Positions 29,251 through 47,698 of a stretch of DNA of 49,765 nucleotides are shown here, one piece after another; the stretch's first letter is position 1; every line of letters begins with the position of its first letter. Where the stretch lies: the sequence record OL539444.1; one strand, 5' to 3'. The position numbers and the translations under genes were made by a program. The notes below the pieces were generated by a model. The model had not been told where the DNA came from, made no database searches, and worked only from the letters and a program-made list of their open reading frames with translations. Source of the stretch: Escherichia phage_vB_EcoD_Punny.

Positions 29251-29658
29251 ATGGTTACTGATAAAGGCGATTATCTGGAGTATTACGACAAGTCAGATCC
29301 AGACGATAGGAAGGAGGAAGCGCACCAGGTTGATTCTTATTCATGGTTAACATATGAGTTTCCAATGTGGCTTGTTTGGCACACTAAAAACGAAGGGAAG
29401 AAAACAATAGGCACAGCAGTAAAGGATCAGCAAGCAGGTGTAAAAAAGGGAGTAAGCGACATTCTAATCCTGACTGGTTTTATTGGCTGCAAATATGCAT
29501 TCATTGCAATTGAGCTTAAACGAGCCAACAAGAAAGGAACGAAAGTAAGCCAGGAACAAAGGGAATTCTTGCGCCGCGTTAGGGAATGCGGAGGATTTGC
29601 CGCCGTATGCTATGGAGTAGAGCAAGTAAAATTGGCTATCGCAGACGCTACAAAATAG
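29251..29658 (+). CDS. VRR-NUC domain nuclease (putative)
   Basis: DILIL...IAIELK...EQ arrangement resembles the VRR-NUC D/E-K core; stop codon is the TAG of the next dyad motif. Confidence 0.5.
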   Translation: MVTDKGDYLEYYDKSDPDDRKEEAHQVDSYSWLTYEFPMWLVWHTKNEGKKTIGTAVKDQQAGVKKGVSDILILTGFIGCKYAFIAIELKRANKKGTKVSQEQREFLRRVRECGGFAAVCYGVEQVKLAIADATK

Positions 29659-29698
29659 CACTTTTTGTTAAAACAGGCGCAACGGAATGCGCCATAAT
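29655..29698 (+). promoter_or_regulatory. dyad-motif promoter unit P3
   Basis: ATAGCACTTTTTGTTAAAAC, 18-nt gap containing GGCGCA/TGCGCC hairpin, CATAAT. Confidence 0.55.
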
Positions 29699-29729
29699 GC
29701 ACCCATCAGAACGAAACGGAGAATTAACC

Positions 29730-30008
29730 ATGAAAAAGATGTTATCAGTAGTTGCTTTATCACTTGCTCTTGTCGGTTGCATGGATAAACCCAAAACATA
29801 TATTTGCGGAAATGAAGCGTTTGAGGTTACAAGCGAATATATGAAAGTTGTGCAAGGCAAAAGCACAGGCGTTGTAATGGATAATATCAGCAAAAATCAA
29901 TATAAGTTGTTTACGCCAATTGGAACGGCTTTCTACACAGTTAATGAAAACACAATTGATATTAAAGTTGGCGTTTATCAGAACACTCTAACTTGCGAGG
30001 TAAAATAA
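29730..30008 (+). CDS. lipoprotein (possible Cor/Llp-like superinfection exclusion protein)
   Basis: Signal peptide MKKMLSVVALSLALVG-C with lipobox; about 92 aa. Track ORF from 29586 rejected because it spans the promoter unit. Confidence 0.55.
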   Translation: MKKMLSVVALSLALVGCMDKPKTYICGNEAFEVTSEYMKVVQGKSTGVVMDNISKNQYKLFTPIGTAFYTVNENTIDIKVGVYQNTLTCEVK

Positions 30009-30009
30009 A

Positions 30010-30747
30010 ATGGCTAAAGACATTCAGGACAAAACCACAATTGACACTTTCGCACAGGAAATGGATTTTCATGAGCTACAACACGGCAGATATTCAGATA
30101 TTGCGTTGCGTTCAGGTGGTCATTATCAGCCAGTTAGAGAAAATACTTTCCTTAAAGTTAGCGGCAACCGATACGCCGGAAGTAAAACGCCTGACGTAGT
30201 GCGCGATTTGTGGGAAACGCCAGATGAAATTGTTGAATATCTTGCTGAACGTTACGGGAAATATGATCTTGATGCAGCAGCAAGCGAAAACAACAAAAAA
30301 TGCGATAAGTTTTACAGCAAAGAGACAAACTGCTTAAAGCGTTGGTGGGGTAGCAATAAGCATGTTTGGTTAAATCCACCATACAGCAATCCAGATCCAT
30401 TTATCAAAAAAGCAATTGAGCAGATGGAGCACGGAAACCAGATTGATATTTTACTTCCGGCTGATAATTCAACTGCATGGTTTAGCGATGCGCAAAAGAA
30501 TGCAGCGGAAATAATCTGGATCACTGGCGAAACATGGGAGGATGACGGCAAGGAATATTCCCGCACTGGTCGATTAGCGTTTATTTCTGGCCTGACAGGT
30601 GAACCAGTACAAGGCAACAATAAAGGCAGTGTTATTTTTATCATGCGTCAACTTAAAGAAGGTGAGCAACAGCAAACACATTATGTGAAGATTAGCGATA
30701 TTTGCCCTTCTGTAAAAAATAAACGAGCCAAAGCGCGGAGTATTTAA
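30010..30747 (+). CDS. DNA N6-adenine methyltransferase (Dam-like)
   Basis: WLNPPYS matches the (D/N)PPY catalytic motif of amino-methyltransferases; 245 aa. Confidence 0.65.
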   Translation: MAKDIQDKTTIDTFAQEMDFHELQHGRYSDIALRSGGHYQPVRENTFLKVSGNRYAGSKTPDVVRDLWETPDEIVEYLAERYGKYDLDAAASENNKKCDKFYSKETNCLKRWWGSNKHVWLNPPYSNPDPFIKKAIEQMEHGNQIDILLPADNSTAWFSDAQKNAAEIIWITGETWEDDGKEYSRTGRLAFISGLTGEPVQGNNKGSVIFIMRQLKEGEQQQTHYVKISDICPSVKNKRAKARSI

Positions 30748-30749
30748 TA

Positions 30750-31007
30750 ATGGAAAATATGACAGTTTATTTAATTGAATTTGGAGAGTGGTTGCTTTAT
30801 CGCGGCCTTGTGTGTGAAATGATCACAAAAGAGGGTCATCTAGAAAAGATCGATTGTGATTTATGGGAATTTACCGAATCTCTTGATATGAGTTTTGACG
30901 AAATAAAGGAATTACCGATTGAAGAATGGCCGATTAAAGTAAAAGCTGATCTTGATGAATTCGTTAAAGACTGGGAAATGAGAAACGGAATGATGAGAGC
31001 AGAATAG
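30750..31007 (+). CDS. hypothetical protein
   Basis: 85 aa acidic ORF; stop is the TAG inside the next dyad motif. Confidence 0.45.
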   Translation: MENMTVYLIEFGEWLLYRGLVCEMITKEGHLEKIDCDLWEFTESLDMSFDEIKELPIEEWPIKVKADLDEFVKDWEMRNGMMRAE

Positions 31008-31047
31008 CACTTTTTGTTAAAAATGCCCCGCGAAAGTGGGGCATAAT
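31004..31047 (+). promoter_or_regulatory. dyad-motif promoter unit P4
   Basis: ATAGCACTTTTTGTTAAAAA, 18-nt gap with TGCCCCGC-GAAA-GTGGGGCA hairpin (GNRA loop), CATAAT, leader CAACGAAACGAAA. Confidence 0.55.
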
Positions 31048-31079
31048 CATTTCAACGAAACGAAATTAGGATTTGCAAA

Positions 31080-33892: not shown

Positions 33893-34114
33893 TTAAAAAA
33901 TATTGTTCATTAAGTCTTGGAAACTATTACCGCTATAATCCTTTTCCTCAATAATGTGAGCGCCTTTCTTTTTTATATCCCACAGCATTTTTTCATATTC
34001 GCAGCGGTTAATGCCAAACGTACTACCATCATCAACATATGCGGTTCCTTTGTTGTTGAAAACGTCAAATGTAACATTAACAACGCGAATTGTTTTGATA
34101 GTGCATTTTAACAT
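33893..34114 (-). CDS. hypothetical protein
   Basis: 73 aa ORF 36 nt downstream of the M1 -10. Confidence 0.45.
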   Translation of the reverse strand: MLKCTIKTIRVVNVTFDVFNNKGTAYVDDGSTFGINRCEYEKMLWDIKKKGAHIIEEKDYSGNSFQDLMNNIF

Positions 34115-34150
34115 TTTGTTTTCCTTTTGTTGCTACGTTTCGTTAAAACA

Positions 34151-34194
34151 AATATACCCGATACAAGATCGGGTGTTTTAACAAAAAGTGCTAT
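34151..34194 (-). promoter_or_regulatory. dyad-motif promoter unit M1
   Basis: On the minus strand ATAGCACTTTTTGTTAAAAC, 18-nt gap with ACCCGAT/ATCGGGT hairpin, TATATT, leader AACGAAACG. Confidence 0.55.
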
Positions 34195-34388
34195 TCAAAG
34201 CGCCTTACGTGAATTAGTAGTTCACCGTCATCATTTGTTAACTGGTGCTCATTATCTTCAAACGCTCGCATATCACTGTAAAGCAACAACATTAGTGCAT
34301 AGACAAAATCATCATGCGAAATTTGCATTACTGAACTTTCTTTCAAAATAAGATCTATCAAATGCTGGCTTGCTGAATAATTCTTCAT
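34191..34388 (-). CDS. hypothetical small protein (uncertain)
   Basis: 65 aa ORF whose stop is the TAG inside M1, matching the punctuation pattern, but it overlaps 34312-34704 by 77 nt and has a weak RBS. Confidence 0.2.
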   Translation of the reverse strand: MKNYSASQHLIDLILKESSVMQISHDDFVYALMLLLYSDMRAFEDNEHQLTNDDGELLIHVRRFE

Positions 34389-36287: not shown

Positions 36288-36314
36288 CTGAAAATCTCCT
36301 TCTTGTTGCCGCTA

Positions 36315-36358
36315 ATTATAACGGCAACATTCTACAGCCTTTTAGCAATTCGTGCTAT
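36315..36358 (-). promoter_or_regulatory. dyad-motif promoter unit M2
   Basis: On the minus strand ATAGCACGAATTGCTAAAAG, 18-nt gap, TATAAT inside GTTGCCG/CGGCAAC hairpin. Confidence 0.55.
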
Positions 36359-36603
36359 TTTATCGGCTCAACCCTGGCTAATAACTTTCCGTCTATAATG
36401 CTATGACATTCAAGAGTTTTAGGATCGAATGCAAGCGAACGATGGAACGTATGACCAATCAGCAAATATGAATGCTTATCCCTGATGCGATAGACCGTTT
36501 CACCTTCCTTTAATGACGATATCGCACTAAAAACAACCTTGTAACGGTATTTTTGCATGGCCTCAGAACGGTGAGGAATGTAATCTTTTTCCGGTAAACT
36601 CAT
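36355..36603 (-). CDS. hypothetical protein
   Basis: 82 aa ORF; stop is the TAG inside M2. Confidence 0.45.
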   Translation of the reverse strand: MSLPEKDYIPHRSEAMQKYRYKVVFSAISSLKEGETVYRIRDKHSYLLIGHTFHRSLAFDPKTLECHSIIDGKLLARVEPIK

Positions 36604-36962: not shown

Positions 36963-36994
36963 TTGATTTATCTCCTTTTGTTTTCGTTGAAATC

Positions 36995-37038
36995 ATTATG
37001 CCGGATACGTGATCCGGCGTTTTAACAAAAAGTGCTAT
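36995..37038 (-). promoter_or_regulatory. dyad-motif promoter unit M3
   Basis: On the minus strand ATAGCACTTTTTGTTAAAAC, 18-nt gap with CCGGAT/ATCCGG hairpin, CATAAT, leader TTCAACGAAAAC. Confidence 0.55.
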
Positions 37039-38376: not shown

Positions 38377-38407
38377 TTTTGATTCTCCATTTTGTTTATG
38401 TGAAAGT

Positions 38408-38451
38408 ATGATACCAATCAGAGCGATATCGTTTTTAGCAATTCGTGCTAT
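38408..38451 (-). promoter_or_regulatory. dyad-motif promoter unit M4
   Basis: On the minus strand ATAGCACGAATTGCTAAAAA, 18-nt gap, TGgTATCAT. Confidence 0.5.
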
Positions 38452-39113: not shown

Positions 39114-39144
39114 TTTTAAATTCTCCGGTTCGTTTTGATGAATG

Positions 39145-39189
39145 CATTATGCCAAAACAAACCGGATCGCTTTTAACAAAAAGTGCTAT
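39145..39189 (-). promoter_or_regulatory. dyad-motif promoter unit M5
   Basis: On the minus strand ATAGCACTTTTTGTTAAAAG, 18-nt gap, TGgCATAAT, leader CATCAAAACGAACCGGAGA. Confidence 0.55.
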
Positions 39190-39933: not shown

Positions 39934-40007
39934 CGTTAATCTCCTGATTGGTTTCGATGGGGTAACTATATCAAGATACCCCGATCCTTTTTTAGCAATT
40001 CGTGCTA

Positions 40008-40292
40008 TTAGCCAAACGCTTTAATTTCGAAATCTTCTTCTGCCTGATTAGCAACCGCCGTGAACATTTGCTCAAGAGTTTCAAATCCGAAATGTTTAGC
40101 GATCTCATAAGCCGCTTTACCTTCCGTCTGCATGTTTAGCGCTTCGCAATAGTGCATTTCCAGATTGTTCAGGTATTTGTTGCCAGTTGGGATTGCTGCG
40201 TCGATTTTGTCCCACACGATCCAAAAGTTTGTTTTGTCAGCCGCTGCGAGTACAAAGTTTGTCTTGTCTACTGCAATCACTAAGTTTTCCAT
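40008..40292 (-). CDS. hypothetical protein
   Basis: 94 aa ORF 31 nt downstream of the M6 -10; first gene of the leftward cluster. Confidence 0.5.
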   Translation of the reverse strand: MENLVIAVDKTNFVLAAADKTNFWIVWDKIDAAIPTGNKYLNNLEMHYCEALNMQTEGKAAYEIAKHFGFETLEQMFTAVANQAEEDFEIKAFG

Positions 40293-40323
40293 CGTGTAAT
40301 CCTCAGTTCGTTTCGTTGATGTA

Positions 40324-40368
40324 ATTATAGCAATTCGCGTCTGATTGGTTTTAACAAAAAGTGCTATT
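40324..40368 (-). promoter_or_regulatory. dyad-motif promoter unit M6
   Basis: On the minus strand ATAGCACTTTTTGTTAAAAC, 19-nt gap, TGcTATAAT, leader CATCAACGAAACGAA. Confidence 0.55.
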
Positions 40369-40376
40369 CATGCGAT

Positions 40377-40404: not shown

Positions 40405-40407
40405 AAT

Positions 40408-40530: not shown

Positions 40531-40667
40531 TAGTGAGAGAGCAGAAATAATCACACCTTGCCGATCAGAGAAAACTTTTCCCGCAAAAAATCACTCCAGG
40601 CTCAGCTCGTTTCGTTTTGTTCCTCGCCGTTCCCATCCCGACCTTCCGCAGTTTAGCGCAACGTTAC

Positions 40668-40740
40668 ACAACACGTATAACAACAAAATATCTATATAAT
40701 ACATTGAAAAGTAAGATAATTATTATTATATATCTATATT
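40668..40740. repeat. conserved AT-rich intergenic element, copy B
   Basis: Matches 20171-20245 (two identical blocks of 20 and 25 nt). Confidence 0.7.
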
Positions 40741-40956
40741 GTTATATAACTTGTTTTGCTTGTTTCTCATGATATTGATACCCCTTCACGGATTTATAGA
40801 GTATAAAATTATAAGATAGGTGCTCTTATTTATTATAGGTGGCGGTGATTTTTAGCGAAATGGTGTAACGATTTAGAACATCGTTGATTTGAAAGGATAA
40901 ATTTTCAATTACTGTTACATTGCGTGATGTTTTTGTTGCCTAATCAAAAATAACAC

Positions 40957-40984
40957 TTGACGCATAAGCCAGGTTTGCTAAGAT
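40957..40984 (+). promoter_or_regulatory. sigma70-like early promoter
   Basis: TTGACG, 16-bp spacer, TAAGAT; about 34 nt upstream of ATG 41019. Confidence 0.5.
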
Positions 40985-41018
40985 TTCTGCATCGAGCAAC
41001 AACGGAGGATAACCAATC

Positions 41019-41306
41019 ATGGTAAGGGGCAAAATCGTAAAGCGTGACCTATCCATAGTTGATGCAACGCCAGAAGATGCAACCAAAGATATCATGCGCC
41101 TAATGTACATAGCGCGGATACTGGAGGCTGCAAAACCAAACAGGCTGTATTACATCGACATTAAGGCATCCGGTCGCGACGTTAATTCATTGCGCCAGGC
41201 AATAAACACGATTGCTAAAGAGGATCGCAGAACAATTAAGACAATAACCACTGATAACGGCTATATCGGCTTTGTTATCATCGACGTTAAAGAAGCGTTT
41301 GTGTAA
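41019..41306 (+). CDS. hypothetical early protein
   Basis: 95 aa ORF with GGAGGA RBS; first gene of the rightward early array. Confidence 0.5.
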   Translation: MVRGKIVKRDLSIVDATPEDATKDIMRLMYIARILEAAKPNRLYYIDIKASGRDVNSLRQAINTIAKEDRRTIKTITTDNGYIGFVIIDVKEAFV

Positions 41307-41761: not shown

Positions 41762-41865
41762 AAGCATTCGCATTTATCGCTGCAATGTGGTGCGTTGCAA
41801 TCGGTCATCCTGGCGTGGCGCTTGCGTTGTGCGTATTTATTTTGTTGGGGGTGTTTGATGAATAA
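41758..41865 (+). CDS. small hydrophobic peptide (35 aa, GTG start)
   Basis: AAGGAGA RBS 7 nt upstream; start overlaps the upstream stop; single predicted transmembrane helix. Confidence 0.3.
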   Translation: MKAFAFIAAMWCVAIGHPGVALALCVFILLGVFDE

Positions 41866-41971
41866 GAAACTTTTAGATCATGCCGTGGTGTTCTTTATCG
41901 CTGCTGCTGGATTTTCGCTGTTGTCAATTGCTTTTTCAATCCTTGCTTTTGCCGTGTCAATGCTGAAATGA
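41858..41971 (+). CDS. small hydrophobic peptide (37 aa)
   Basis: MNKKLLDHAVVFFIAAAGFSLLSIAFSILAFAVSMLK. Confidence 0.3.
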   Translation: MNKKLLDHAVVFFIAAAGFSLLSIAFSILAFAVSMLK

Positions 41972-41993
41972 CGGATTACATCCTGATTGGCAA

Positions 41994-42037
41994 ATAGCAC
42001 TTTTTGTTAAAACTCGATTGGGGTAGTTTGGCATAAT
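41994..42037 (+). promoter_or_regulatory. dyad-motif promoter unit P5
   Basis: ATAGCACTTTTTGTTAAAAC, 18-nt gap, TGgCATAAT between GGGGTA and TACCCC, leader CATCGAAACGAAACGAGG. Confidence 0.55.
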
Positions 42038-42068
42038 TACCCCATCGAAACGAAACGAGGAAAACACA

Positions 42069-42227
42069 ATGACTACCTTAATCACCTGGGAACACGAAAC
42101 AAGCCAGCCAGTAACCCGCGAGTTTGAAACTCTTAGCCAGGCTTATCTGCTGGCTGCTAACGGTGGTTATTACAAGGCTCAAGTTATTGATGAAATGGGA
42201 GTGATCGTTTATGAATTCCATGCATAA
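42069..42227 (+). CDS. hypothetical small protein (52 aa)
   Basis: ATG 31 nt after the P5 -10; below the track cut-off. Confidence 0.4.
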   Translation: MTTLITWEHETSQPVTREFETLSQAYLLAANGGYYKAQVIDEMGVIVYEFHA

Positions 42228-42492
42228 TTTCCGCAGCTACACGCAGGAAGTGGATTTTGATGGGATCAAGTTACCACTTCCTAACATATACCGCTATATC
42301 ACTCGTGATGAATACGGATTTATAAACGCATGGCGAGATAAGCCAAAAAAGGTTGGCAATGAATACGGCGACGGCTCAGAGATGCCGATCACGTTAGGTC
42401 ATCAAACTGGCGAAAATGTATCGGCTGTAATGCGCAAATATCGCCGCAGCCGCACAAACTCATTAATTTCTATCTTTGGCATACCGGAGTAA
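42211..42492 (+). CDS. hypothetical protein
   Basis: 93 aa ORF. Confidence 0.4.
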   Translation: MNSMHNFRSYTQEVDFDGIKLPLPNIYRYITRDEYGFINAWRDKPKKVGNEYGDGSEMPITLGHQTGENVSAVMRKYRRSRTNSLISIFGIPE

Positions 42493-42755: not shown

Positions 42756-42828
42756 GGTGATAAAGTGAGCAGTTGGCACAATGAGCACGTAATGCAATTC
42801 TACCGCCACAGAATAAAGAAAATGCTAA

Positions 42829-42872
42829 ATAGCACGAATTGCTAAAACTAAATCAGGGGAATTTGTTATAGT
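42829..42872 (+). promoter_or_regulatory. dyad-motif promoter unit P6
   Basis: ATAGCACGAATTGCTAAAAC, 18-nt gap, TGtTATAGT flanked by AGGG/CCCT. Confidence 0.5.
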
Positions 42873-42905
42873 GCCCTCGTTGAGTTAAGCAAAGGAGAAT
42901 CAACA

Positions 42906-43460
42906 ATGTTAAGCATCGAAAAAATCAACTTCCCGATCACATTTAAAAATTGCGCTGACGGTAGAAATATTACATATCACAGTGAATACAGCAACGGCGT
43001 TTGGAGTAGCGGCGAGAAAAGCAGTCTTTCATTGCAATATTTCATTAAGCTGCATAATGAGCATAACCAAAGCAATAGTAATGTGTTGAGGTACTATTAC
43101 GAAATGGCAGAAAAACGCGAGGATAACGATCTGTTAGATGCGATGAAATATTTAAATATCAAGCCTGGCCAGGTTAATTTAAACGGTGCTGTGTTTACTG
43201 CGTCAGTAGGTGCTAAAGATTACGATTACATTTGCAAGGTTGAAAATATGCCAGTTGGCGCAACTCTGTTAGGTGTTCAGCGTGAAAATGGCGAATGGGA
43301 CGAGTTGAAATTTAAACCGCGCCGCATTGAAGTACACGACGATGTTATTTGCTTGCTTTCCGGTTATTCTGGAGGTTACAAGAGCGGCAATAATTACGGA
43401 GCTGAAATCAACATTAAGATCGGTACTAACGTAAAAATCAAAAACAGCACGAATTGCTAA
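42906..43460 (+). CDS. hypothetical protein
   Basis: 184 aa ORF with AAGGAGAA RBS; the C-terminal NSTNC and stop are encoded by the next dyad motif. Confidence 0.5.
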   Translation: MLSIEKINFPITFKNCADGRNITYHSEYSNGVWSSGEKSSLSLQYFIKLHNEHNQSNSNVLRYYYEMAEKREDNDLLDAMKYLNIKPGQVNLNGAVFTASVGAKDYDYICKVENMPVGATLLGVQRENGEWDELKFKPRRIEVHDDVICLLSGYSGGYKSGNNYGAEINIKIGTNVKIKNSTNC

Positions 43461-43486
43461 AACAAATTAACGGCCTTGCGATATAG
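43443..43486 (+). promoter_or_regulatory. dyad-motif promoter unit P7
   Basis: ACAGCACGAATTGCTAAAAC, 18-nt gap, TATAGT in the loop of GGCCTT/AAGGCC. Confidence 0.55.
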
Positions 43487-43519
43487 TAAGGCCATACCAA
43501 ACAAACCGGAGAAGTTAAC

Positions 43520-43696
43520 ATGAAATTATATGGTGTCGCTGGAATCGCTTTCTTTTCTTTGTGGATTGCTGCAATCGCTGGCTGGATCATGAATATCGTT
43601 GAAATGTTTGGCGATATCACAACCAACGAATTAATCATTCGCGCAATCGGGATATTCGTTGCACCTGCTGGCGCATTAATGGGCTGGTTCATGTAA
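43520..43696 (+). CDS. small membrane protein (58 aa)
   Basis: Two hydrophobic segments; CCGGAGAA RBS. Confidence 0.4.
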   Translation: MKLYGVAGIAFFSLWIAAIAGWIMNIVEMFGDITTNELIIRAIGIFVAPAGALMGWFM

Positions 43697-43739
43697 TAGC
43701 ACTTTTTGCTAAAACAAAATTTCGGGGTTGCGGTATAGT
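43696..43739 (+). promoter_or_regulatory. dyad-motif promoter unit P8
   Basis: ATAGCACTTTTTGCTAAAAC, 18-nt gap, TATAGT in the loop of GGGGT/ACCCC. Confidence 0.55.
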
Positions 43740-43769
43740 GACCCCACACAAAACAAAGAGGATCAGATA

Positions 43770-44096
43770 ATGGAATTAGCACGTAACGCAATTTATGGTT
43801 TGCACCTCAAAGGCGGAAAAGGTTTTACTTGTGCCCACCTTTTTCATGTGAATGAGCGTGGTCAGATGGATATCGCAATGTTTGTTGACCAAAGGGTTAA
43901 GAAAGGCGGTGAGGGTGATTGTGATACATTCCGACCGGATTTAGTTGAATACGATCACACATACAGTCATGATCACTGGATTGGTCACGGTCGCAAGTTT
44001 GTAATGGTTAATAGCCACGTTACCGACACAAGCAAAATCACTGCATCGCAGTATAAGCGCATGGCTCGCAAGGTTATGAAGTTAGAAGCGCAATAG
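43770..44096 (+). CDS. hypothetical protein
   Basis: 108 aa ORF with AAGAGGA RBS; stop is the TAG in the next motif. Confidence 0.5.
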   Translation: MELARNAIYGLHLKGGKGFTCAHLFHVNERGQMDIAMFVDQRVKKGGEGDCDTFRPDLVEYDHTYSHDHWIGHGRKFVMVNSHVTDTSKITASQYKRMARKVMKLEAQ

Positions 44097-44136
44097 CACG
44101 AAATGTTAAGCGGTCATGTGTGCTGATTGGTACAAT
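44093..44136 (+). promoter_or_regulatory. dyad-motif promoter unit P9 (degenerate motif)
   Basis: ATAGCACGAAATGTTAAGCG, 18-nt gap, TGgTACAAT within GGTCAT/ATGACC hairpin. Confidence 0.45.
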
Positions 44137-44168
44137 GACCTCATCAAACAACAAGAGAGGATAGAAAA

Positions 44169-44276: not shown

Positions 44277-44279
44277 TGG

Positions 44280-44843
44280 ATGTTTAAGATCGAATTGTGG
44301 GGCAAGGAATACACTAATCACTACGTTGCAACAAAACAGCGTTTCGTGATTTTCGACCTGGACGGCACATTGTCAAACGGCATTAACCGTTTGCACCTTT
44401 TGCCAACTGTTGATTTACATCTTACTGAAAGCTGGAGTGAGTTTAATCGCGCCGCAAAGGATGATTTACCATTCAGGGATAACATAGCCGTTTGCAATGC
44501 TATGTTTGATGCCGGATACCTGGTTATTATCCTAACAGGACGTAGTGATGAAGTTGAAGCAGAAACGCGATCCTGGTTAGCTGAAAACGGCGTTTCTTTC
44601 GATTGGCTGATTATGCGCCGCGCGGAGGACAACCGGAAAGATACCGTGATCAAAGAGGAAGTTTTACGCGCTATCGGCCTGGAGAATATCGTTGCATGTT
44701 GGGATGACTCACCAAACGTTATTGCACACCTGCGCGGCCTGGGCTTGACTGTTTACCAGGTCATTGACTACGGCGAGCAGTTACACGATCACTTAAAATC
44801 TCACGGCGTGGAGGAATTGAGCGATGACAGCAAAGCTAATTGA
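44280..44843 (+). CDS. HAD-superfamily phosphatase (polynucleotide 3'-phosphatase-like)
   Basis: FVIFDLDGTLSNG (DxDGT motif I), 187 aa. Confidence 0.55.
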   Translation: MFKIELWGKEYTNHYVATKQRFVIFDLDGTLSNGINRLHLLPTVDLHLTESWSEFNRAAKDDLPFRDNIAVCNAMFDAGYLVIILTGRSDEVEAETRSWLAENGVSFDWLIMRRAEDNRKDTVIKEEVLRAIGLENIVACWDDSPNVIAHLRGLGLTVYQVIDYGEQLHDHLKSHGVEELSDDSKAN

Positions 44844-45012: not shown

Positions 45013-45022
45013 AGGATTTATT

Positions 45023-45208
45023 ATGTTGACTTTTATCTTGATCGCTATAGTTTTAATTCTGTATATTTGCGGCGCTTTCCTGATGCGAGCGCTACTAAAA
45101 GAGGCTGACGCTGATGATAAGGATAGTTGGAAGCCGATTATTTTATGGCCTGGATATATCATCGTGCCGATTTACGAACTAATCCGCGATGGTGAGTTTA
45201 AGTGGTAA
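45023..45208 (+). CDS. small membrane protein (61 aa)
   Basis: N-terminal transmembrane helix; AGAGGA RBS. Confidence 0.4.
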   Translation: MLTFILIAIVLILYICGAFLMRALLKEADADDKDSWKPIILWPGYIIVPIYELIRDGEFKW

Positions 45209-45252
45209 ATAGCACTTTTTGCTAAAACTTGCTAAGGCACATTTGATAAAGT
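45209..45252 (+). promoter_or_regulatory. dyad-motif promoter unit P10
   Basis: ATAGCACTTTTTGCTAAAAC, 18-nt gap, TGaTAAAGT in the loop of AAGGCACA/TGTGCCTT. Confidence 0.55.
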
Positions 45253-45285
45253 GTGCCTTGTCGAGACAAGCAAGGAGAATGACAC

Positions 45286-45582: not shown

Positions 45583-45764
45583 TGAATCTTGATAATAAAG
45601 TTGAAACGCAAAAGACGATTGATTATCTGCGTGACCTTGCCGACAAGCTGGAGAATAACCAGATTCATTTAAATGAGATCGTTATTGAATCGCGCAACGT
45701 TTGTTGGAACGTTGAAGAAGAAACATTAACCATGCAAGTTTTAAAGGCGGTAGACAATGGCTAA
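45582..45764 (+). CDS. hypothetical protein (60 aa)
   Basis: ATG overlaps the upstream TGA. Confidence 0.35.
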   Translation: MNLDNKVETQKTIDYLRDLADKLENNQIHLNEIVIESRNVCWNVEEETLTMQVLKAVDNG

Positions 45765-46332
45765 AATTATCATCCTTAACGCGCCTCCAGGTGCTGGTAA
45801 AGACACAATCGGCAAGATGATTTCTTTCTATTCGCCTGGTGAGCAATGCCGCATCATTAGCTTTAAAGAGCCAATGTTTGACATTGCATTAGCTATCCTG
45901 GGCAAAGAGAACTATCAGCGTTTCATGCTGGCTTACGATGACAGAGAGCAGAAAGAAAGGCCACAAACGTTCCTGATGGGTATGTCGCCTCGAGAGTTCA
46001 TGATCTGGATTAGCGAGGATGTGATCAAGCCTAAATTCGGCAAGGATTATTTCGGCGTAAGGTTTAACCAGAAAGTAAAAGAGTGTGATGCTCCTGTTGT
46101 TTGCACTGATGGTGGTTTTCCAGATGAAATTATCGCTCTAATCAATGCTGGTAATGAGGTGAAGTTATGCCGATTGCATCGCGACGGGTTCACGTTTGCA
46201 GGTGATAGCCGCAACTACATTCGAATCAATCCCTATTACCAGAAAAACGGATATAGCGAGCACGATTACTTATTAACCAATGAAAAGCCGATGATTACAG
46301 TTAGCGAAATCATTCGCGATCACCTTAAATAG
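45757..46332 (+). CDS. P-loop kinase (nucleotide/polynucleotide kinase-like)
   Basis: N-terminal Walker A NAPPGAGKDT; 191 aa; near the HAD phosphatase. Confidence 0.5.
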   Translation: MAKIIILNAPPGAGKDTIGKMISFYSPGEQCRIISFKEPMFDIALAILGKENYQRFMLAYDDREQKERPQTFLMGMSPREFMIWISEDVIKPKFGKDYFGVRFNQKVKECDAPVVCTDGGFPDEIIALINAGNEVKLCRLHRDGFTFAGDSRNYIRINPYYQKNGYSEHDYLLTNEKPMITVSEIIRDHLK

Positions 46333-46372
46333 CACGAATTGCTAAAACTTGCGCAAGGCCATTTGTTATAGT
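46329..46372 (+). promoter_or_regulatory. dyad-motif promoter unit P11
   Basis: ATAGCACGAATTGCTAAAAC, 18-nt gap, TGtTATAGT in the loop of AAGGCCA/TGGCCTT. Confidence 0.55.
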
Positions 46373-46407
46373 GGCCTTATTCAAGAGAAGCAACCGAGGA
46401 ATAATCG

Positions 46408-46605
46408 ATGAAAATCAAATGCACCAAATCAAACACCATGAATCTGACAGTTGGCGCAATTTACCACATGGAAGATGGTGTAAACGGATTTAGCCCGACT
46501 GTTACGCATGAATACGGCGGTCACTTCTTCTTAAACGGTAAAGACGGATTATCTGTAAATGTTGGCTCTTTCGTTCTGGCAGAATTTGAGATCGTGGAGG
46601 AATAA
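46408..46605 (+). CDS. hypothetical protein
   Basis: 65 aa ORF. Confidence 0.45.
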   Translation: MKIKCTKSNTMNLTVGAIYHMEDGVNGFSPTVTHEYGGHFFLNGKDGLSVNVGSFVLAEFEIVEE

Positions 46606-46606
46606 A

Positions 46607-46771
46607 ATGTTCTGGATTCATTCGCCGCAAGGATTGCTTTATGTGCCTGGCGTTGAATTGGAAGAACGACGCGACGGCGACACGGTAAACATCATAACGA
46701 AGGATTCAAAAGGCCATACACTAAAAACGTATGTTTTTAACACTCCGGTTAAGGTTGAAAAAGATGATTAG
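46607..46771 (+). CDS. hypothetical protein (54 aa)
   Basis: GGAGG RBS. Confidence 0.35.
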   Translation: MFWIHSPQGLLYVPGVELEERRDGDTVNIITKDSKGHTLKTYVFNTPVKVEKDD

Positions 46772-46946
46772 ATTTATTGGTTTTGTGGCATTGCTTTTGT
46801 GCGGCATATTGCTTACTGACAATGACACTTGGCAAAGTGCTGTTGGCGGCTTACTTATTTTTCTTGCTGGTGGCATGGTTGGCAGTGATGACGCAGCAAA
46901 CAAGAATAAACTTTCAGATCATTTACGCAGAGAGACAAAACGATGA
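46764..46946 (+). CDS. small membrane protein (60 aa)
   Basis: Two hydrophobic segments. Confidence 0.35.
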   Translation: MIRFIGFVALLLCGILLTDNDTWQSAVGGLLIFLAGGMVGSDDAANKNKLSDHLRRETKR

Positions 46947-47188
46947 ATAGAAAAATGCTGGTACGAGCATTCGCAAAGATTGCTAAAAGATGGGGTGATT
47001 CAGCTAAAACGCCTTACACGTTTAGCCGATACGGTTATAAAAATGCTCGCGCCTGGGGTCGCTGCATTGCTGATAACTACAACTCCGAAATGATGGAAGA
47101 TTTTGCAAAGTGGATTGATACGCCTTTGAAGGATTGGTGTCAATTTGACTATGACTATTTCGCAGAAGAAGAAATTTCTTGTTGGTAA
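46943..47188 (+). CDS. hypothetical protein
   Basis: 81 aa ORF. Confidence 0.4.
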   Translation: MNRKMLVRAFAKIAKRWGDSAKTPYTFSRYGYKNARAWGRCIADNYNSEMMEDFAKWIDTPLKDWCQFDYDYFAEEEISCW

Positions 47189-47200
47189 GGAGAATAAAAT

Positions 47201-47698
47201 ATGAAAGCTAAAAATGATTTTTATAACTACCTGACAAAAGGCCGTGACTATACCGTTTTGAATAGCATAGATACTCTTTACCTGGTTGTTGCTGATAATG
47301 GCGTTAGAGTTTGGCTTGATAAAACTCTTTTCGAAAGCGAGCACCTAAGCAACGCAAAGCGGATCGCAGATGAAGCAAGCGCATTAGCAGAGCGTGAACG
47401 AATTCGCGATATAGTAGCGGAGCAGGTTAGAAATTCATGTTCGCCTGGTGGCGATATCTTCAAATCAATGCGCGGTGAAATGACGGTTGGAATTCAAGAT
47501 CGCGTAATTTCAAAGTCAGTTGATTCTGTAATTGAGAATGCGCGATTCAATGCGTTGATTAACTCAGAGCATAACGAATACGTCAAAGCATTAGAGCAAC
47601 TGCGTGAAGTGCTGCGAGTGCCGGAAGGTGAAAATATTGTGACTCATGCAAAGGTTGTAAGAGCGTTGGCTGATGCGCTGATTGGTCTGCAAAAATAG
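47201..47698 (+). CDS. hypothetical protein
   Basis: 165 aa ORF with AAGGAGAA RBS; stop is the TAG in the next motif. Confidence 0.5.
   Translation: MKAKNDFYNYLTKGRDYTVLNSIDTLYLVVADNGVRVWLDKTLFESEHLSNAKRIADEASALAERERIRDIVAEQVRNSCSPGGDIFKSMRGEMTVGIQDRVISKSVDSVIENARFNALINSEHNEYVKALEQLREVLRVPEGENIVTHAKVVRALADALIGLQK

What the first reader, a model, noticed from the sequence alone, without database searches (positions are those of the whole stretch)
29655..47698. Stop codons of upstream genes are embedded in the dyad motif; three ORFs share a motif-encoded NSTNC C-terminus
In at least 13 of 18 units the upstream ORF ends on the TAG of A-TAG-CAC (for example 29251-29658, 30750-31007, 43770-44096, 45757-46332, 47201-47698, 36355-36603, 37035-37730), on a TAA immediately before it (20529-21584, 43520-43696, 45023-45208), or on the TAA of GC-TAA-AAC after reading through the motif. 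Reading through the GAATTG variant gives a C-terminal N-S-T-N-C in 42906-43460 and in the short ORFs 42765-42845 and 38435-38530 (minus). The motif therefore acts as a combined gene end and gene start signal, allowing very tight packing. It also creates artefactual ORF extensions in six-frame tracks (LAKSAI-type peptides).
Basis: seen in the sequence. Interest (0 to 1): 0.5.

Follow-up and report, generated by a model that had tools for sequence, protein, structure and literature searches.

The report
Stop codons inside marbox-type phage promoters
In this T1-like phage, about sixteen genes end inside a repeated 20-base promoter element that matches the binding site of the host's MarA/SoxS/Rob stress regulators, so the overlap most likely reflects extreme genome packing around host-activator-type promoters, not a special gene-end signal.

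Summary
The window is a complete Tlsvirus (T1-like) genome with 20 copies of aaATAGCAC-N3-TTG-N-TAAAA. In 16 of the 18 copies that have a co-directional upstream gene, that gene's stop lies inside or abuts the repeat: TAG 7, in-frame TAA-TAG 2, TAA abutting 3, read-through to the internal TAA 4. The same holds in T1, Rtp, TLS, Rogue1 and Klebsiella phage TSK1, including at non-orthologous sites.

The repeat was published for phage TLS in 2024, with its function listed as an open question.

New here:
- The repeat sits at a fixed 18 nt upstream of a -10 hexamer, often an extended one, with the next start codon about 75 nt downstream. It is therefore a promoter element.
- It matches the published marbox/soxbox consensus AYNGCACNNWNNRYYAAAYN at 13-14 of 14 specified positions, in forward orientation, with the same 20-mer/18-nt/-10 geometry as E. 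coli micF. That makes it a class II MarA/SoxS/Rob-type promoter by sequence.
- With a hairpin in most units, the units resemble the PeSL promoter-terminator cassettes of T4-like phages. Two indels lie exactly between repeat copies.

The NSTNC tails are incidental translations of the repeat. One of the three ORFs that carry them is a genuine, unannotated Stp homologue. Binding by host activators is inferred, not shown.

The parts
21585..21659 (+). Promoter unit: 20-nt marbox-type repeat (21585-21604), 17-nt spacer with hairpin, -10 TATACT, 5' UTR; next start 21660. The upstream exonuclease gene ends with TAA 21582-21584, abutting the repeat.
26520..26594 (-). Promoter unit whose hairpin plus T-run looks like a true intrinsic terminator. 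The regulator gene (26578-27186) reads through the repeat to its internal TAA (26578-26580), giving the tail DSTDC. Next start 26519 (primase).
   Evidence: TLS terminator T57
27197..27274 (+). Promoter unit for the helicase gene, divergent from the regulator gene. No co-directional upstream gene. The ZerotoHero annotation of the regulator translates this repeat in antisense (…LAKSAI…).
29655..29729 (+). Promoter unit. The VRR-NUC gene 29251-29658 ends on the TAG of the repeat. The real downstream start is probably 29730, not the annotated 29697.
31004..31079 (+). Promoter unit with a GCGAAAG-loop hairpin. Gene 30750-31007 ends on the TAG of the repeat.
34115..34194 (-). Promoter unit plus gene 33893-34114, forming a moron-like insertion that is absent from TLS. 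The real upstream gene ends 120 nt away, so this unit is an exception. The annotated ORF 34191-34361 is probably spurious.
36288..36358 (-). Promoter unit with the -10 inside the hairpin loop. Gene 36355-36603 ends on the TAG of the repeat.
36963..37038 (-). Promoter unit. The cytosine methyltransferase gene 37035-37730 ends on the TAG of the repeat.
38377..38451 (-). Promoter unit. Gene 38435-38602 reads through to the internal TAA, giving the tail NSTNC.
39114..39189 (-). Promoter unit. The 33-aa ORF 39190-39291 ends with a TAA abutting the repeat. The unit is conserved in TLS while both of its flanks differ.
39934..40008 (-). Promoter unit. Gene 40008-40292 ends with an in-frame tandem TAA-TAG. 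Stevie carries an unrelated gene in this slot, and that gene also ends at the repeat.
40293..40367 (-). First promoter unit of the leftward early operon. It follows a roughly 650-nt non-coding region and has no upstream gene.
41994..42068 (+). Promoter unit. The likely upstream gene, a 36-aa membrane peptide at 41858-41971, ends about 25 nt before the repeat, so this unit is an exception. In TLS, sequence similar (78%) to this unit and the genes after it (41993-42482) lies inverted in the leftward operon, with the homology break 1 nt before the repeat.
42829..42905 (+). Promoter unit. The 26-aa Stp homologue 42765-42845 reads through to the internal TAA, giving the tail NSTNC. U136B lacks window 42848-43695, and the junction there is the 20-nt repeat itself.
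43444..43519 (+). Promoter unit with the variant ACAGCAC. Gene 42906-43460 reads through to the internal TAA, giving the tail NSTNC.
43696..43769 (+). Promoter unit. Gene 43520-43696 ends with an in-frame tandem TAA-TAG. TLS and Stevie lack 43504-43695, and the two flanking alignments overlap by 61 nt of unit sequence in those genomes.
44093..44168 (+). Degenerate promoter unit (ATAGCACGAAATGTTAAGC) with -10 TACAAT. Gene 43770-44096 ends on its TAG.
45209..45285 (+). Promoter unit. Gene 45023-45208 ends with a TAA abutting the repeat.
46329..46407 (+). Promoter unit. The kinase gene 45757-46332 ends on the TAG of the repeat.
47695..47770 (+). Promoter unit. Gene 47201-47698 ends on the TAG of the repeat.

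Best explanation
**What it is.** The 'dyad motif' is the 21-nt direct repeat already described in T1-like phages. It is the upstream half of about 20 phage promoters.

**Layout of a unit.** Each unit is about 75 nt long and fills the whole intergenic space:
- the upstream gene's stop;
- a 20-nt repeat, at about -50 to -31;
- an 18-nt spacer, usually carrying one arm or all of a hairpin;
- a -10 hexamer, often with an extended TGn;
- a UTR of about 25 nt with a Shine-Dalgarno sequence;
- the next start codon.

**What the repeat matches.** By sequence, orientation and spacing, the repeat is a class II marbox/soxbox. That is the asymmetric site bound by monomers of the host AraC-family activators MarA, SoxS and Rob (RamA in Citrobacter, Klebsiella and Salmonella). 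At such promoters the site overlaps the -35 position and the activator contacts RNA polymerase there.

**How I think it works (inferred).** Host RNA polymerase transcribes the phage early and middle genes from these promoters with help from a host marbox-binding protein. From my own knowledge, Rob is the most plausible candidate, because it is abundant and constitutive.

**Why the stops sit inside it.**
- The genome leaves no spare bases between a gene and the next promoter.
- The fixed letters of the site spell T-A-G at positions 2-4 and T-A-A at positions 15-17.
- Genes in two of the three frames are therefore closed by the site itself.
- Genes in the third frame carry a TAA immediately in front of it.
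- The NSTNC and DSTDC tails are what the site encodes in the read-through frame.

**Cassette behaviour.** The repeated units also serve as homology for cassette gain, loss and exchange. A stop inside the conserved repeat stays intact whichever cassette is joined downstream.

**Shown here:** the anatomy, spacing, conservation across genera, the consensus match, the micF comparison, and indels between repeats.

**Inferred:** promoter activity, activator binding, and compaction as the cause of the overlap.
For: **Stops embedded in the repeat.**
- 16 of 18 units in the window.
- The same in T1, Rtp, TLS, Rogue1 and TSK1.
- 101 of 131 in IMG/VR, against 11 of 71 for repeat matches without the -10.

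**The state is re-established, not inherited once.**
- Orthologous gene ends use different frames in different lineages.
  - The regulator gene uses the internal TAA in the window, TLS and T1, and TAG in TSK1. In Rtp it reads through a degenerate repeat.
  - VRR-NUC uses TAG in four genomes and the internal TAA in Rogue1.
- In Rtp, repeat-plus-HNH cassettes sit exactly on the stop of TerS and tail-L, and a repeat unit with a structural gene sits on the stop of TerL. The protein C-termini are otherwise unchanged to within 1-2 residues.

**Promoter anatomy.**
- The -10 hexamer is at offset 38 in 92 of 107 copies from six genomes, at 39 in 8 and at 37 in 7. The sequence between the repeat and the -10 is not conserved.
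- TGn precedes the -10 in about 12 of the 20 window units (my reading of the sequences).
- Start codons lie at +71 to +80, apart from one annotated start at +42 that I think is wrong.
- Canonical sigma-70 sites are depleted in the region, 27 against 45 expected, and none coincides with a unit.
- TLS has only three canonical promoters (PMC11447400).

**Marbox identity.**
- The published consensus AYNGCACNNWNNRYYAAAYN (PMC2064960, PMC3709825), used as a search pattern, finds 20 sites in the window. All are repeat copies, and 0.13 are expected by chance.
- The ChIP-derived consensus gcannwwntgnnaaa (PMC12052159) gives 21 hits against 2.1 expected.
- Variation among the 107 copies stays within the consensus classes:
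  - position 10 is W in 107 of 107;
  - position 13 is R in 107 of 107;
  - position 14 is Y in 103;
  - position 2 is Y in 105;
  - position 15 is Y in 106.

**Geometry.**
- E. coli micF reads ACAGCACTGAATGTCAAAAC, 18 nt, TAGAAT, 7 nt, +1.
- nfo has 18 nt between marbox and -10, and fumC about 18-19 nt.
- Published criteria: a forward marbox overlapping -35, centred between -36 and -55, and micF centred at -41.5. The repeat centre falls at about -40.5 to -41.5.

**No phage-encoded candidate.** I found no MarA/SoxS homologue and no AraC-domain protein.

**Hairpins.** 15 of 20 units fold at or below -9 kcal/mol, against 14.5% of random windows. The mean z-score is -3.3.

**Cassette behaviour**:
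- U136B lacks 42848-43695, joined at the repeat itself.
- TLS and Stevie lack 43504-43695, where the two flanking alignments overlap by 61 nt of unit sequence.
- Stevie has a different gene in slot 40009-40284.
Against: - **No experiments.** There is no transcription start site, binding or expression data for any T1-like phage in the searchable library. The -10, the TSS and the class II position are all predictions.
- **Weak consensus.** The marbox consensus carries little information, and published work notes thousands of candidate sites in E. coli. The 20 hits are copies of one sequence, so the real test is one consensus against another. My rough estimate is about 7e-6 per register and strand, or about 0.02 after allowing for all the transcription-factor motifs I could have compared. 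The geometry and the pattern of polymorphism add to this.
- **Imperfect fit.** Position 19 is A in 76 of 107 copies, not Y. micF has A there too.
- **Excess conservation.** The repeat is more conserved than a marbox needs to be (A3, T11, T12, and 'aa' at -2/-1). A more specific or additional reader, such as a phage protein, cannot be excluded.
- **Activator availability (my own knowledge).** MarA and SoxS are scarce in unstressed cells, and Rob is largely sequestered. Dependence of a fast lytic phage on them is not obviously sensible.
- **Extended -10.** Promoters of this type can fire without any activator.
- **Recombination evidence is limited.** Breakpoints are enriched in units relative to sequence length: about 12 of about 28, with units covering about 6.7% of the region by my estimate. 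They are not clearly enriched relative to gene junctions in general, of which about a third carry units by my count.
- **Frame bias is weak here.** The preference for the TAG frame is not significant in the window alone (9:4:3, p = 0.14).
Confidence: 0.6

Rival explanations
1. The repeat is the operator of a phage-encoded protein. The obvious candidate is the conserved Cro/YdaS-like HTH 'transcriptional regulator' (26578-27186, minus strand), whose gene is flanked by two repeat copies. It would activate or shut off the roughly 20 promoters, as a 'stoperator' or enhancer in the sense suggested in the TLS paper. The stop overlap would still be a by-product of packing.
For: - The regulator is conserved across Drexlerviridae: 830 phage records, and PHROG 2856 at E = 6e-76. 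It co-occurs with the repeat in all six genomes examined.
- Its gene ends inside one repeat and is divergent from another.
- In TLS, one of only three canonical sigma-70 promoters drives it, which would fit a cascade.
- The repeat is more conserved than the marbox consensus requires.
- The sequence TAGCA-N5-TGCTA is a 5-bp inverted repeat in the copies with C at position 14.
Against: - Conservation is asymmetric. G4 is invariant while its dyad partner, position 14, is C in 62 copies and T in 41. C7 has no complementary partner.
- Orientation and the 18-nt spacing to the -10 are strict. That fits a monomeric two-HTH reader in contact with RNA polymerase better than a symmetric dimer.
- The variable and fixed positions track the marbox consensus.
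- I have no direct evidence about what this protein binds. Pfam gives only a sub-threshold single HTH.
- The regulator and the repeat are both too conserved for a co-variation test.
Confidence: 0.2
2. The motif is itself a combined gene-end and gene-start signal: it is selected because it supplies stop codons, and the promoter role is secondary or absent.
For: - Stops fall in or at the motif in all three frames.
- The TAG frame is over-represented: 82:12:7 in the IMG/VR loci.
- A at position 3 is invariant although the marbox consensus has N there, and it completes the TAG.
Against: - Copies with no upstream gene (27197, 40367) are as well conserved as the rest, A3 included.
- The motif keeps a fixed distance to the -10, not to anything in the upstream gene.
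- Any stop codon would end a gene, so a 20-nt conserved element is not needed for that.
- The variant ACAGCAC loses the TAG and is tolerated in several genomes.
- The IMG/VR counts are inflated by near-identical genomes.
Confidence: 0.07
3. The repeat plus hairpin acts mainly in RNA, at the 3' end of the upstream message. It would be a processing, stabilising or termination module, and the stop codon lies next to it for that reason.
For: - Hairpins are real: 15 of 20 units, mean z = -3.3.
- They show compensatory changes between orthologous units, and several have GCGAAAG loops.
- The T1 and Stevie records annotate several of them as terminators.
- One unit (26594) has a genuine hairpin plus T-run.
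- The stem-loop of one PeSL tested in T4-like phages terminates transcription (PMC2839356).
- The C/T change at position 14 would keep a G-C or G-U pair in an RNA fold of the dyad.
Against: - The position of the hairpin relative to the repeat floats, whereas the spacing from repeat to -10 is fixed.
- Only one unit hairpin in the 29-48.5 kb scan passes a simple intrinsic-terminator test.
- The 5-bp dyad stem would be very weak.
- This reading explains the hairpin, not the 20-nt repeat. It is therefore better seen as a second function of the unit than as a rival.
Confidence: 0.1
4. The coincidence is a chance or annotation artefact. ORF finders simply run every frame on until the stop triplets inside the motif.
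For: - The motif carries stops in two of three frames.
- Some annotated ORFs that touch it are probably spurious, for example 34191-34361, 41878-42000, and the N-terminal extensions at 27255 and 29697.
Against: - Most genes that end in the motif are conserved proteins. Several have known functions: VRR-NUC nuclease, cytosine methyltransferase, a kinase, exonuclease VIII, the regulator and Stp.
- Chance occurrences of the same 19-mer in unrelated viral contigs end an ORF of at least 40 aa in at most 15% of cases, against 77%.
- Genes in the stop-free frame still end exactly at the motif.
Confidence: 0.03

Closest known systems
The 21-nt direct repeat of phage TLS and other T1-like phages (aaATAGCACnnnTTGnTAAAA; Kropinski/Misra 2024, PMC11447400). 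It is also annotated as repeat_region in the Citrobacter phage Stevie record.
   Same: It is the same element, with the same sequence, copy number (18 intergenic copies in TLS), orientation and distance of about 76 nt to the next start codon.
   Different: The paper leaves the function open. It suggests a stoperator, an enhancer site or an UP element, and lists the question among those still unanswered. It does not mention the stop-codon overlap, the fixed spacing to a -10 or any link to marboxes.
Class II marbox/soxbox promoters of the E. coli mar/sox/rob regulon (micF, fumC, nfo)
   Same: - A 20-nt asymmetric site matches AYNGCACNNWNNRYYAAAYN at 13-14 of 14 positions.
- It is in forward orientation.
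- It lies 18 (rarely 17 or 19) nt upstream of the -10, with no usable -35.
- Its centre is at about -41.
- micF has the identical 20-mer/18-nt/-10 layout, and its marbox is 15 of 20 identical to one phage copy.
- The mar operon marbox is 16 of 20 identical to the repeat consensus.
   Different: - These sites are on a virulent phage genome, about 20 copies in 50 kb.
- They are far less degenerate than host marboxes.
- Most carry a hairpin in or around the spacer, and many have an extended -10.
- Position 19 is usually A.
- Binding and activation have not been tested.
PeSLs (promoter-early stem-loops) of T4-like phages (Arbiol et al. 2010, PMC2839356; Comeau et al. 2014, PMC4122927)
   Same: - Both are composite intergenic cassettes that begin at the stop codon of the upstream gene, in an A/T-rich stretch.
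- Both carry a promoter and a stem-loop placed between the -35 and -10 positions or over the -10.
- Both end with a Shine-Dalgarno sequence and the next start codon.
- Both are concentrated among small ORFan genes.
- In both, recombination between copies adds, removes or swaps gene cassettes (here).
   Different: - PeSLs have canonical sigma-70 -35 and -10 boxes. Here the -35 is replaced by a marbox-like repeat 5 bp further upstream.
- The stop lies inside the conserved element itself.
- Terminator activity and mini-circle formation are shown for PeSLs, not here.
Morons and free-standing HNH homing-endonuclease cassettes in phage genomes
   Same: Extra genes arrive with their own promoter between two conserved genes. 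Examples: repeat plus HNH after TerS and tail-L in Rtp, after the repair exonuclease in T1, and after the major capsid gene in Rogue1. The window's unit 34194 plus gene 33893-34114 is another case.
   Different: The promoter is always the same family-wide repeat unit, and the junction sits on the stop codon of the upstream gene.
Stoperators of mycobacteriophage L5
   Same: Many copies of a short asymmetric site, all oriented with transcription. This is the comparison drawn in the TLS paper.
   Different: Stoperators, from my own knowledge, are repressor sites scattered within transcribed regions of a temperate phage. Here the phage is virulent, and every copy sits at a fixed distance from a -10 and a start codon.

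Membership tests
Class II marbox (MarA/SoxS/Rob/RamA-dependent) promoter | A 20-bp asymmetric site matching AYNGCACNNWNNRYYAAAYN, with RE1 GCAC and RE2 YAAA | tested here: met
   - The consensus (first 18 positions) finds 20 sites, all repeat copies, against 0.13 expected.
- The 54 distinct 20-mers from six genomes score 11 to 14 of 14, most often 13.
- Polymorphic positions stay within Y, W and R.
- Position 19 deviates: it is A, as in micF.
Class II marbox (MarA/SoxS/Rob/RamA-dependent) promoter | Forward orientation relative to the direction of transcription | tested here: met
   All 20 window copies, and the copies in five other genomes, read AYNGCAC…AAA towards the -10 and the downstream gene. 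micF has the same orientation. The criterion comes from PMC12052159.
Class II marbox (MarA/SoxS/Rob/RamA-dependent) promoter | The site overlaps the -35 position, is centred near -41.5 (range -36 to -55) and lies about 18-19 bp from the -10 hexamer | tested here: inconclusive
   - Spacing to the predicted -10 is 18 nt in 92 of 107 copies. That equals micF and nfo, and fumC is similar.
- The centre is at about -40.5 to -41.5 if the TSS lies 7-8 nt after the -10.
- The -10 and the TSS are predicted, not mapped.
Class II marbox (MarA/SoxS/Rob/RamA-dependent) promoter | A weak or absent canonical -35 hexamer | tested here: met
   The hexamer 17 nt upstream of the -10 is AAAACN. No unit is found by the sigma-70 two-hexamer scan. 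micF is the same.
Class II marbox (MarA/SoxS/Rob/RamA-dependent) promoter | Bound by MarA, SoxS or Rob and activated by them | not testable with these tools
   This needs EMSA or footprinting, in vitro transcription, and reporter or infection assays in rob marA soxS mutants.
PeSL-type composite promoter-terminator cassette | [quoted passage not shown] | tested here: met
   The stop lies within the repeat in 16 of 18 units. The start codon is at +71 to +80 in 19 of 20 as annotated, and at +75 in the remaining one if its start is corrected.
PeSL-type composite promoter-terminator cassette | A strong canonical sigma-70 promoter with -35 and -10 boxes | tested here: not met
   A -10 is present, but there is no canonical -35 at 16-18 bp.
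PeSL-type composite promoter-terminator cassette | A stable stem-loop between the -35 and -10 positions or overlapping the -10 | tested here: met
   15 of 20 units fold at or below -9 kcal/mol, against 14.5% of random windows. Both placements occur.
PeSL-type composite promoter-terminator cassette | Recombination between copies produces cassette indels and swaps | tested here: met
   There are two clean indels between repeats and one slot replacement. Enrichment of breakpoints over other gene junctions is not significant.
T1-like 21-nt direct repeat (TLS DR1-DR18) | Sequence aaATAGCACnnnTTGnTAAAA, intergenic, co-oriented, about 76 nt before the start codon | tested here: met
Sigma-54 (-24/-12) promoter | TGGCAC-N5-TTGCW with invariant GG and GC 10 bp apart, directly upstream of the start site (consensus from memory) | tested here: not met
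   The repeat has AG instead of GG. It has 3 nt, not 5, between CAC and TTG. It has TTGT in 41 of 107 copies. It lies about 30 nt too far upstream.
T4 MotA-box middle promoter | A TGCTTtA box centred at -30, 11-13 bp from the -10, with phage MotA and AsiA (from memory) | tested here: not met
   The TTGCTAAA part of the repeat ends about 20 nt before the -10. No MotA or AsiA is annotated in the phage.

The most novel reading that the evidence does not exclude
T1-like phages (Drexlerviridae) drive about 20 early and middle promoters through near-perfect class II marboxes. Phage gene expression would then be activated or tuned by the host's MarA/SoxS/Rob/RamA regulators of antibiotic, bile and oxidative stress. 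As the genome replicates, thousands of high-affinity marboxes could also titrate those regulators away from host genes. The same units act as PeSL-like recombination linkers, and their built-in stop codons keep any upstream ORF closed after cassette exchange.
Probability: 0.45. Interest if true: 0.8.

Novelty: new variant of a known kind. Interest (0 to 1): 0.6.

Why it matters
**On its own, the stop-codon overlap is a curiosity of genome packing.** Its practical use is in annotation.
- It explains a class of errors in public T1-like genomes. These are N-terminal extensions that translate the repeat or the UTR, spurious ORFs ending on the repeat's TAG, and a missed 26-aa stp gene.
- It shows that C-terminal tails such as NSTNC carry no functional meaning.

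- Here the repeat is shown to sit at a fixed distance from a -10.
- It is also shown to be indistinguishable, in sequence and geometry, from a class II marbox such as that of micF.
- That turns the open question into simple experiments: gel shifts with MarA, SoxS or Rob, reporter assays, and infections of rob marA soxS mutants.

**If the marbox reading holds,** a whole family of virulent enterobacterial phages would be wired to the host regulators that control multidrug efflux and porins.
- That includes phages studied for therapy and notorious as laboratory contaminants.
- It would bear on how phages and antibiotics interact.
- From my own knowledge, TolC belongs to the mar/sox/rob regulon. 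It is also the receptor of TLS (PMC11447400) and of U136B (my own knowledge).

Tried and rejected
- **Repeat's TTGTTA/TTGCTA as a sigma-70 -35 box.** Rejected. The spacer to the -10 would be 22 nt in nearly all copies, and the two-hexamer scan finds none of the units.
- **Sigma-54 promoter (TGGCAC-N5-TTGC).** Rejected on the GG dinucleotide, the spacing and the position.
- **T4 MotA box.** Rejected on spacing and the absence of MotA and AsiA.
- **Symmetric dimer operator (TAGCA-N5-TGCTA).** Disfavoured by the asymmetric conservation.
- **RNA hairpin formed by the dyad, with G-C or G-U at position 14.** Too weak, and not needed to explain the data.
- **A phage-encoded MarA-like activator.** None found.
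The MarA-against-SoxS control gives 6e-29.
  - There is no AraC or HTH_18 Pfam hit in 20 early proteins or in the regulator.
- **Transcriptome or TSS data for T1-like phages.** None in the searchable library. A PNAS 2026 paper that mentions Drexlerviridae sequenced RNA only for a T5-like phage.
- **Prior literature linking marbox, MarA or SoxS to T1-like phages.** Nothing found. Subscription-only papers, including the 2004 T1 genome paper, could not be searched.
- **Breakpoint enrichment at units.** It is strong relative to sequence length but not relative to gene junctions. I therefore rely only on the individual events that show repeat overlap.
- **Frame bias toward TAG.** Suggestive across IMG/VR (82:12:7), but those loci are not independent. 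In the window alone it is not significant (p = 0.14).
- **Not attempted:** structure prediction of the regulator, and the large protein-homology searches. They would not have decided between the explanations.

Full report
**What the window is.** The window is a complete phage genome, 99.3-99.97% identical to Citrobacter phage vB_CfrD_ZerotoHero (Drexlerviridae, Tempevirinae, Tlsvirus sazh). It is rotated by 76 nt relative to that record. I mapped the 88 annotated genes of that record onto the window and corrected a few of them.

**The observation.** A search for TAGCACTTTTTGTTAAAA with up to 3 mismatches gives 14 hits against 0.29 expected. A looser pattern, ATAGCAC-N3-TTG-N-TAAAA, gives 20 convincing copies. 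All point in the direction of the downstream gene. Two more copies are degenerate and have no promoter context, at 6405(-) and 16271(+). Four hits with three mismatches look like chance.

For each copy I located the co-directional upstream gene.
- Seven genes end on the TAG of A-TAG-CAC: 29251-29658, 30750-31007, 43770-44096, 45757-46332, 47201-47698, 36355-36603(-) and 37035-37730(-).
- Two end on a TAA that is followed in frame by that TAG: 43520-43696 and 40008-40292(-).
- Three end on a TAA directly abutting ATAGCAC: 20529-21584, 45023-45208 and 39190-39291(-).
- Four read through to the TAA of TGCTAAAA: 42906-43460, 38435-38602(-), 42765-42845 and the regulator gene 26578-27186(-).

That makes 16 of the 18 copies that have an upstream gene on the same strand.
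- The two exceptions have stops about 25 nt (unit 41994) and 120 nt (unit 34194) away. Nothing lies in between.
- Copies 27197 and 40367 start transcription units.

**Is it more than chance?**
- A random 20-nt window contains a stop codon with probability of about 0.018, so 16 of 18 has p of about 1e-26. Against a 15% baseline, p is still about 1e-11.
- TAG ends 7 of 16 repeat-linked genes but only 4 of 72 other genes (p = 4e-4).

The obvious objection is that the repeat contains TAG and TAA, so ORFs must stop there. I tested this with a scan of IMG/VR for exact matches.
- Matches with a -10 hexamer at +38, which are T1-like units, end an ORF of at least 40 aa within -3 to +17 in 101 of 131 cases.
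- Matches without such a -10 do so in 11 of 71 cases (p = 1e-17). Most of these are single chance hits in unrelated contigs.
- Genes arriving in the one frame where the repeat has no stop still end exactly at its edge, with their own TAA.

I examined these genomes:
- T1 (Tunavirinae);
- Rtp (Braunvirinae);
- TLS;
- Rogue1 (Rogunavirinae);
- Klebsiella phage TSK1 (Webervirus).

All show the same link. In TLS, 14 of 15 applicable repeats contain the stop.

The state is re-created rather than inherited once.
- The regulator gene ends on the internal TAA in the window, TLS and T1, and on the TAG in TSK1. In Rtp it reads through a degenerate repeat.
- VRR-NUC ends on TAG in four genomes and on the internal TAA in Rogue1.

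Rtp offers natural experiments. Repeat units sit exactly on the stop codons of three conserved structural genes:
- TerS, followed by an HNH homing-endonuclease gene (…ctg TAG CAC);
- TerL, followed by a structural gene;
- tail protein L, followed by an HNH gene.

The C-termini of these proteins are otherwise the same as in T1 and the window, to within 1-2 residues. The coincidence is therefore a family-wide property.

**What the repeat is: prior knowledge.** The element is the 21-nt direct repeat aaATAGCACnnnTTGnTAAAA described for TLS in 2024.
- TLS has 18 intergenic copies, co-oriented with transcription, about 76 nt before start codons.
- The authors found only three canonical sigma-70 promoters.
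- They suggested stoperators, enhancer sites or UP elements.
- They do not mention stop codons or a -10.
- The Stevie GenBank record annotates the copies as repeat_region.

**Anatomy.** I aligned 80 copies from four genomes, then 107 promoter-type copies from six.
- A -10-like hexamer sits at offset 38 from the A of ATAGCAC in 92 of 107 copies, at 39 in 8 and at 37 in 7. The consensus is TnTGnTATAAT.
- The 18 nt in between are not conserved in sequence, only in length.
- Downstream comes a conserved …CCCCATCGAAACGAAAC…GGAG leader.
- The start codon is at +71 to +80. One annotated start at +42 is, I think, wrong.
- Canonical two-hexamer promoters are depleted in 29-48.5 kb, 27 against 45 expected, and none coincides with a unit.

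The repeat is therefore the upstream element of a promoter. It occupies about -50 to -31, and the TAG lies at about -49 to -47.

Fifteen of 20 units also contain a stable hairpin (at or below -9 kcal/mol, against 14.5% of random windows; mean z = -3.3).
- The hairpin lies either between the repeat and the -10 or encloses the -10.
- Orthologous hairpins differ by compensatory changes, and several have GCGAAAG loops.
- One unit (26594) has a genuine hairpin plus T-run.

**The marbox match.** The conserved letters of the repeat match the published 20-bp marbox/soxbox consensus AYNGCACNNWNNRYYAAAYN. This is the site for the host AraC-family activators MarA, SoxS and Rob (PMC2064960, PMC3709825).
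- I used the first 18 positions of that consensus as a search pattern on the window. It returns 20 sites, every one a repeat copy, against 0.13 expected.
- The ChIP-derived form gcannwwntgnnaaa (PMC12052159) returns 21 against 2.1 expected.

The variable positions of the repeat are the degenerate positions of the marbox. Where the repeat varies, it stays inside the consensus class across the 107 copies:
- position 10 is T in 59 and A in 48, never G or C;
- position 14 is C in 62 and T in 41;
- position 13 is G in 104 and A in 3;
- position 2 is T in 101 and C in 4;
- position 15 is T in 101 and C in 5;
- only position 19 deviates, with A in 76 copies.

Orientation and position fit the class II type.
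- The literature defines class II as a forward marbox overlapping the -35, centred between -36 and -55.
- micF is centred at -41.5 (PMC9638938).
- I fetched the E. coli K-12 micF promoter. It reads ACAGCACTGAATGTCAAAAC, 18 nt, TAGAAT, 7 nt, +1.
- That is the same 20-mer/18-nt/-10 layout as the phage units. It also has A at positions 3 and 19, and it is 15 of 20 identical to copy 43444.
- nfo has an 18-nt spacing and fumC about 18-19 nt. That nfo and fumC are class II promoters is from my memory of Martin et al. 1999.
- The mar operon's own marbox is 16 of 20 identical to the repeat.

The phage encodes no recognisable MarA-like protein.

Within the searchable library, no paper connects marboxes or MarA/SoxS with T1-like phages.

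**Caveats on the marbox reading.**
- The consensus is weak, and the 20 hits are copies of one sequence.
- I estimate the match of one conserved 20-mer at about 7e-6 per register and strand, or about 0.02 after allowing for all the motifs I might have compared. The orientation, the exact micF-like spacing and the polymorphism pattern improve on this.
- No TSS, binding or expression data exist.
- The repeat is more conserved than a marbox needs to be.
- Extended -10 promoters can work without an activator.
- The conserved phage HTH regulator, whose gene lies between two repeats, remains a credible alternative or additional reader.

**Why the stops are inside it.** Each unit fills its intergenic space completely. 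The distance from repeat to next start is constant, and the upstream gene ends at the unit's first bases.
- The site's fixed letters give TAG at positions 2-4 and TAA at positions 15-17.
- Genes in the third frame have a TAA at -3 to -1.
- I read this as maximal compaction around an element whose sequence is fixed for another reason. It is not a dedicated gene-end signal.
- Copies with no upstream gene are equally conserved.
- The variant ACAGCAC, which has no TAG, is tolerated.

The read-through frame encodes N-S-T-N-C, or D-S-T-D-C in the regulator.
- The T1 orthologue of the 184-aa protein (ST70) has no repeat after it and ends …VRYEVK. The window protein ends …VKIKNSTNC.
- The PHROG profile ends four residues before the window protein's C-terminus.

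The tails are therefore incidental.

**Cassette behaviour.** The units match, part by part, the published description of the PeSLs of T4-like phages:
- the upstream stop codon lies in an A/T-rich stretch;
- a promoter follows;
- a stem-loop lies between the -35 and -10 positions or over the -10;
- an SD and a start codon close the unit;
- recombination between copies shuffles ORFan cassettes (PMC2839356, PMC4122927).

Comparison with TLS, Stevie and U136B shows such events.
- U136B lacks window 42848-43695 (two genes and one unit), and the junction is the 20-nt repeat itself.
- TLS and Stevie lack 43504-43695, where the two flanking alignments overlap by 61 nt of unit sequence.
- Stevie has an unrelated gene in the slot bounded by one unit's end (40284) and the next repeat's start (40009). 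That gene also ends at the repeat.
- In TLS, sequence 78% identical to unit 41994 and the genes after it lies inverted in the leftward operon, with the break 1 nt before the repeat.

About 12 of about 28 distinct breakpoints fall within units. By my estimate, units make up about 6.7% of the sequence but about a third of gene junctions. The enrichment over other junctions is therefore not established.

A stop codon inside the conserved repeat would survive any such exchange. That is a plausible added reason for the arrangement, but it is inference.

**Verdict.**
- The element is a start signal, but for transcription.
- The gene ends overlap it because of packing.
- The element is already known as a repeat of unknown function.

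What is new is the promoter geometry, the PeSL-like architecture and, above all, the class II marbox identity. That identity is strong on sequence grounds but untested experimentally.

Noticed in passing
window 42765-42845 (+): A 26-aa ORF with a GTG start (VSSWHNEHVMQFYRHRIKKMLNSTNC) is a homologue of T4 Stp, the activator of the host PrrC anticodon nuclease (PHROG 6763, E = 4e-15). It is annotated in TLS, Rtp, Stevie and U136B but not in the ZerotoHero record. Its last five residues (NSTNC) are encoded by the repeat. A polynucleotide kinase gene (44280-44843) lies nearby.
   Followed up: partly
window 27187-27255 (-), 29697-29729 (+), 34191-34361 (-), 41878-42000 (-): These look like annotation artefacts in the closest public record.
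- The regulator's annotated N-terminus translates the antisense of a repeat (…LAKSAI…). The real start is probably M at 27186.
- The lipoprotein-like gene probably starts at 29730 (MKKML…), not inside the -10 at 29697.
- ORF 34191-34361 overlaps a neighbouring gene and an intergenic stretch conserved with TLS.
- The minus-strand ORF 41878-42000 overlaps a more plausible plus-strand 36-aa membrane peptide (41858-41971), which aligns with the region of TLS gp03.
   Followed up: partly
window 6387-6405 (-) and 16271-16289 (+): Two repeat-like copies lie outside any promoter unit.
- One is antisense, just upstream of the major capsid gene. It is conserved at the same place in T1 (15086) and TLS (DR7).
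- The other lies 3 nt before the tail-fibre start codon and is also present in TLS (DR8).

Their function is unknown.
   Followed up: no
window 20070-20530 and 40368-41020: The two large non-coding regions share an AT-rich inverted repeat (AAAATATCTATATAATA … TATTATATATCTATATT; 20190-20245 and about 40680-40758). The second region also carries short tandem repeats (TGATTTGATTT x3, 40487-40527) and adjacent palindromes (TAGACCGATTGGTCTAGACCGTTTGGTCTA, 40376-40405). These are candidate origin or regulatory sequences. I did not analyse them further.
   Followed up: partly
window 27216-27275: On the minus strand there is a near-consensus sigma-70 promoter (TTGACT-17-TATCAT, equivalent to TLS P57) for the regulator gene. 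It faces the repeat promoter of the helicase gene, and their -10 hexamers overlap on opposite strands (TATGATA/TATCATA). This suggests mutually exclusive or autoregulated divergent transcription.
   Followed up: no
L003 (Rtp) 6316-6387 and 21393-21463; L002 (T1) 41956-42027 and 46085-46158; L005 (Rogue1) 12048-12111: Free-standing HNH homing-endonuclease genes are each preceded by a repeat promoter unit placed on the stop codon of a conserved gene. In T1, the HNH gene ST8 instead reads through an entire unit whose internal TAA has mutated to CAA.
   Followed up: partly
window 31022-31045; L002 39998-40024 and 41980-42007; L126 36806-36825 and 45335-45351: Several unit hairpins have GCGAAAG loops (a GAAA tetraloop closed by C-G) and differ between phages by compensatory stem changes. 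That points to selection on the structure, most likely at the RNA level.
   Followed up: no
L133 (E. coli K-12, fumA-fumC intergenic region): The host fumC promoter has the same local order as the phage units: upstream gene end, terminator hairpin with T-run, then immediately a 14-of-14 marbox and a -10 about 18-19 nt downstream.
   Followed up: no
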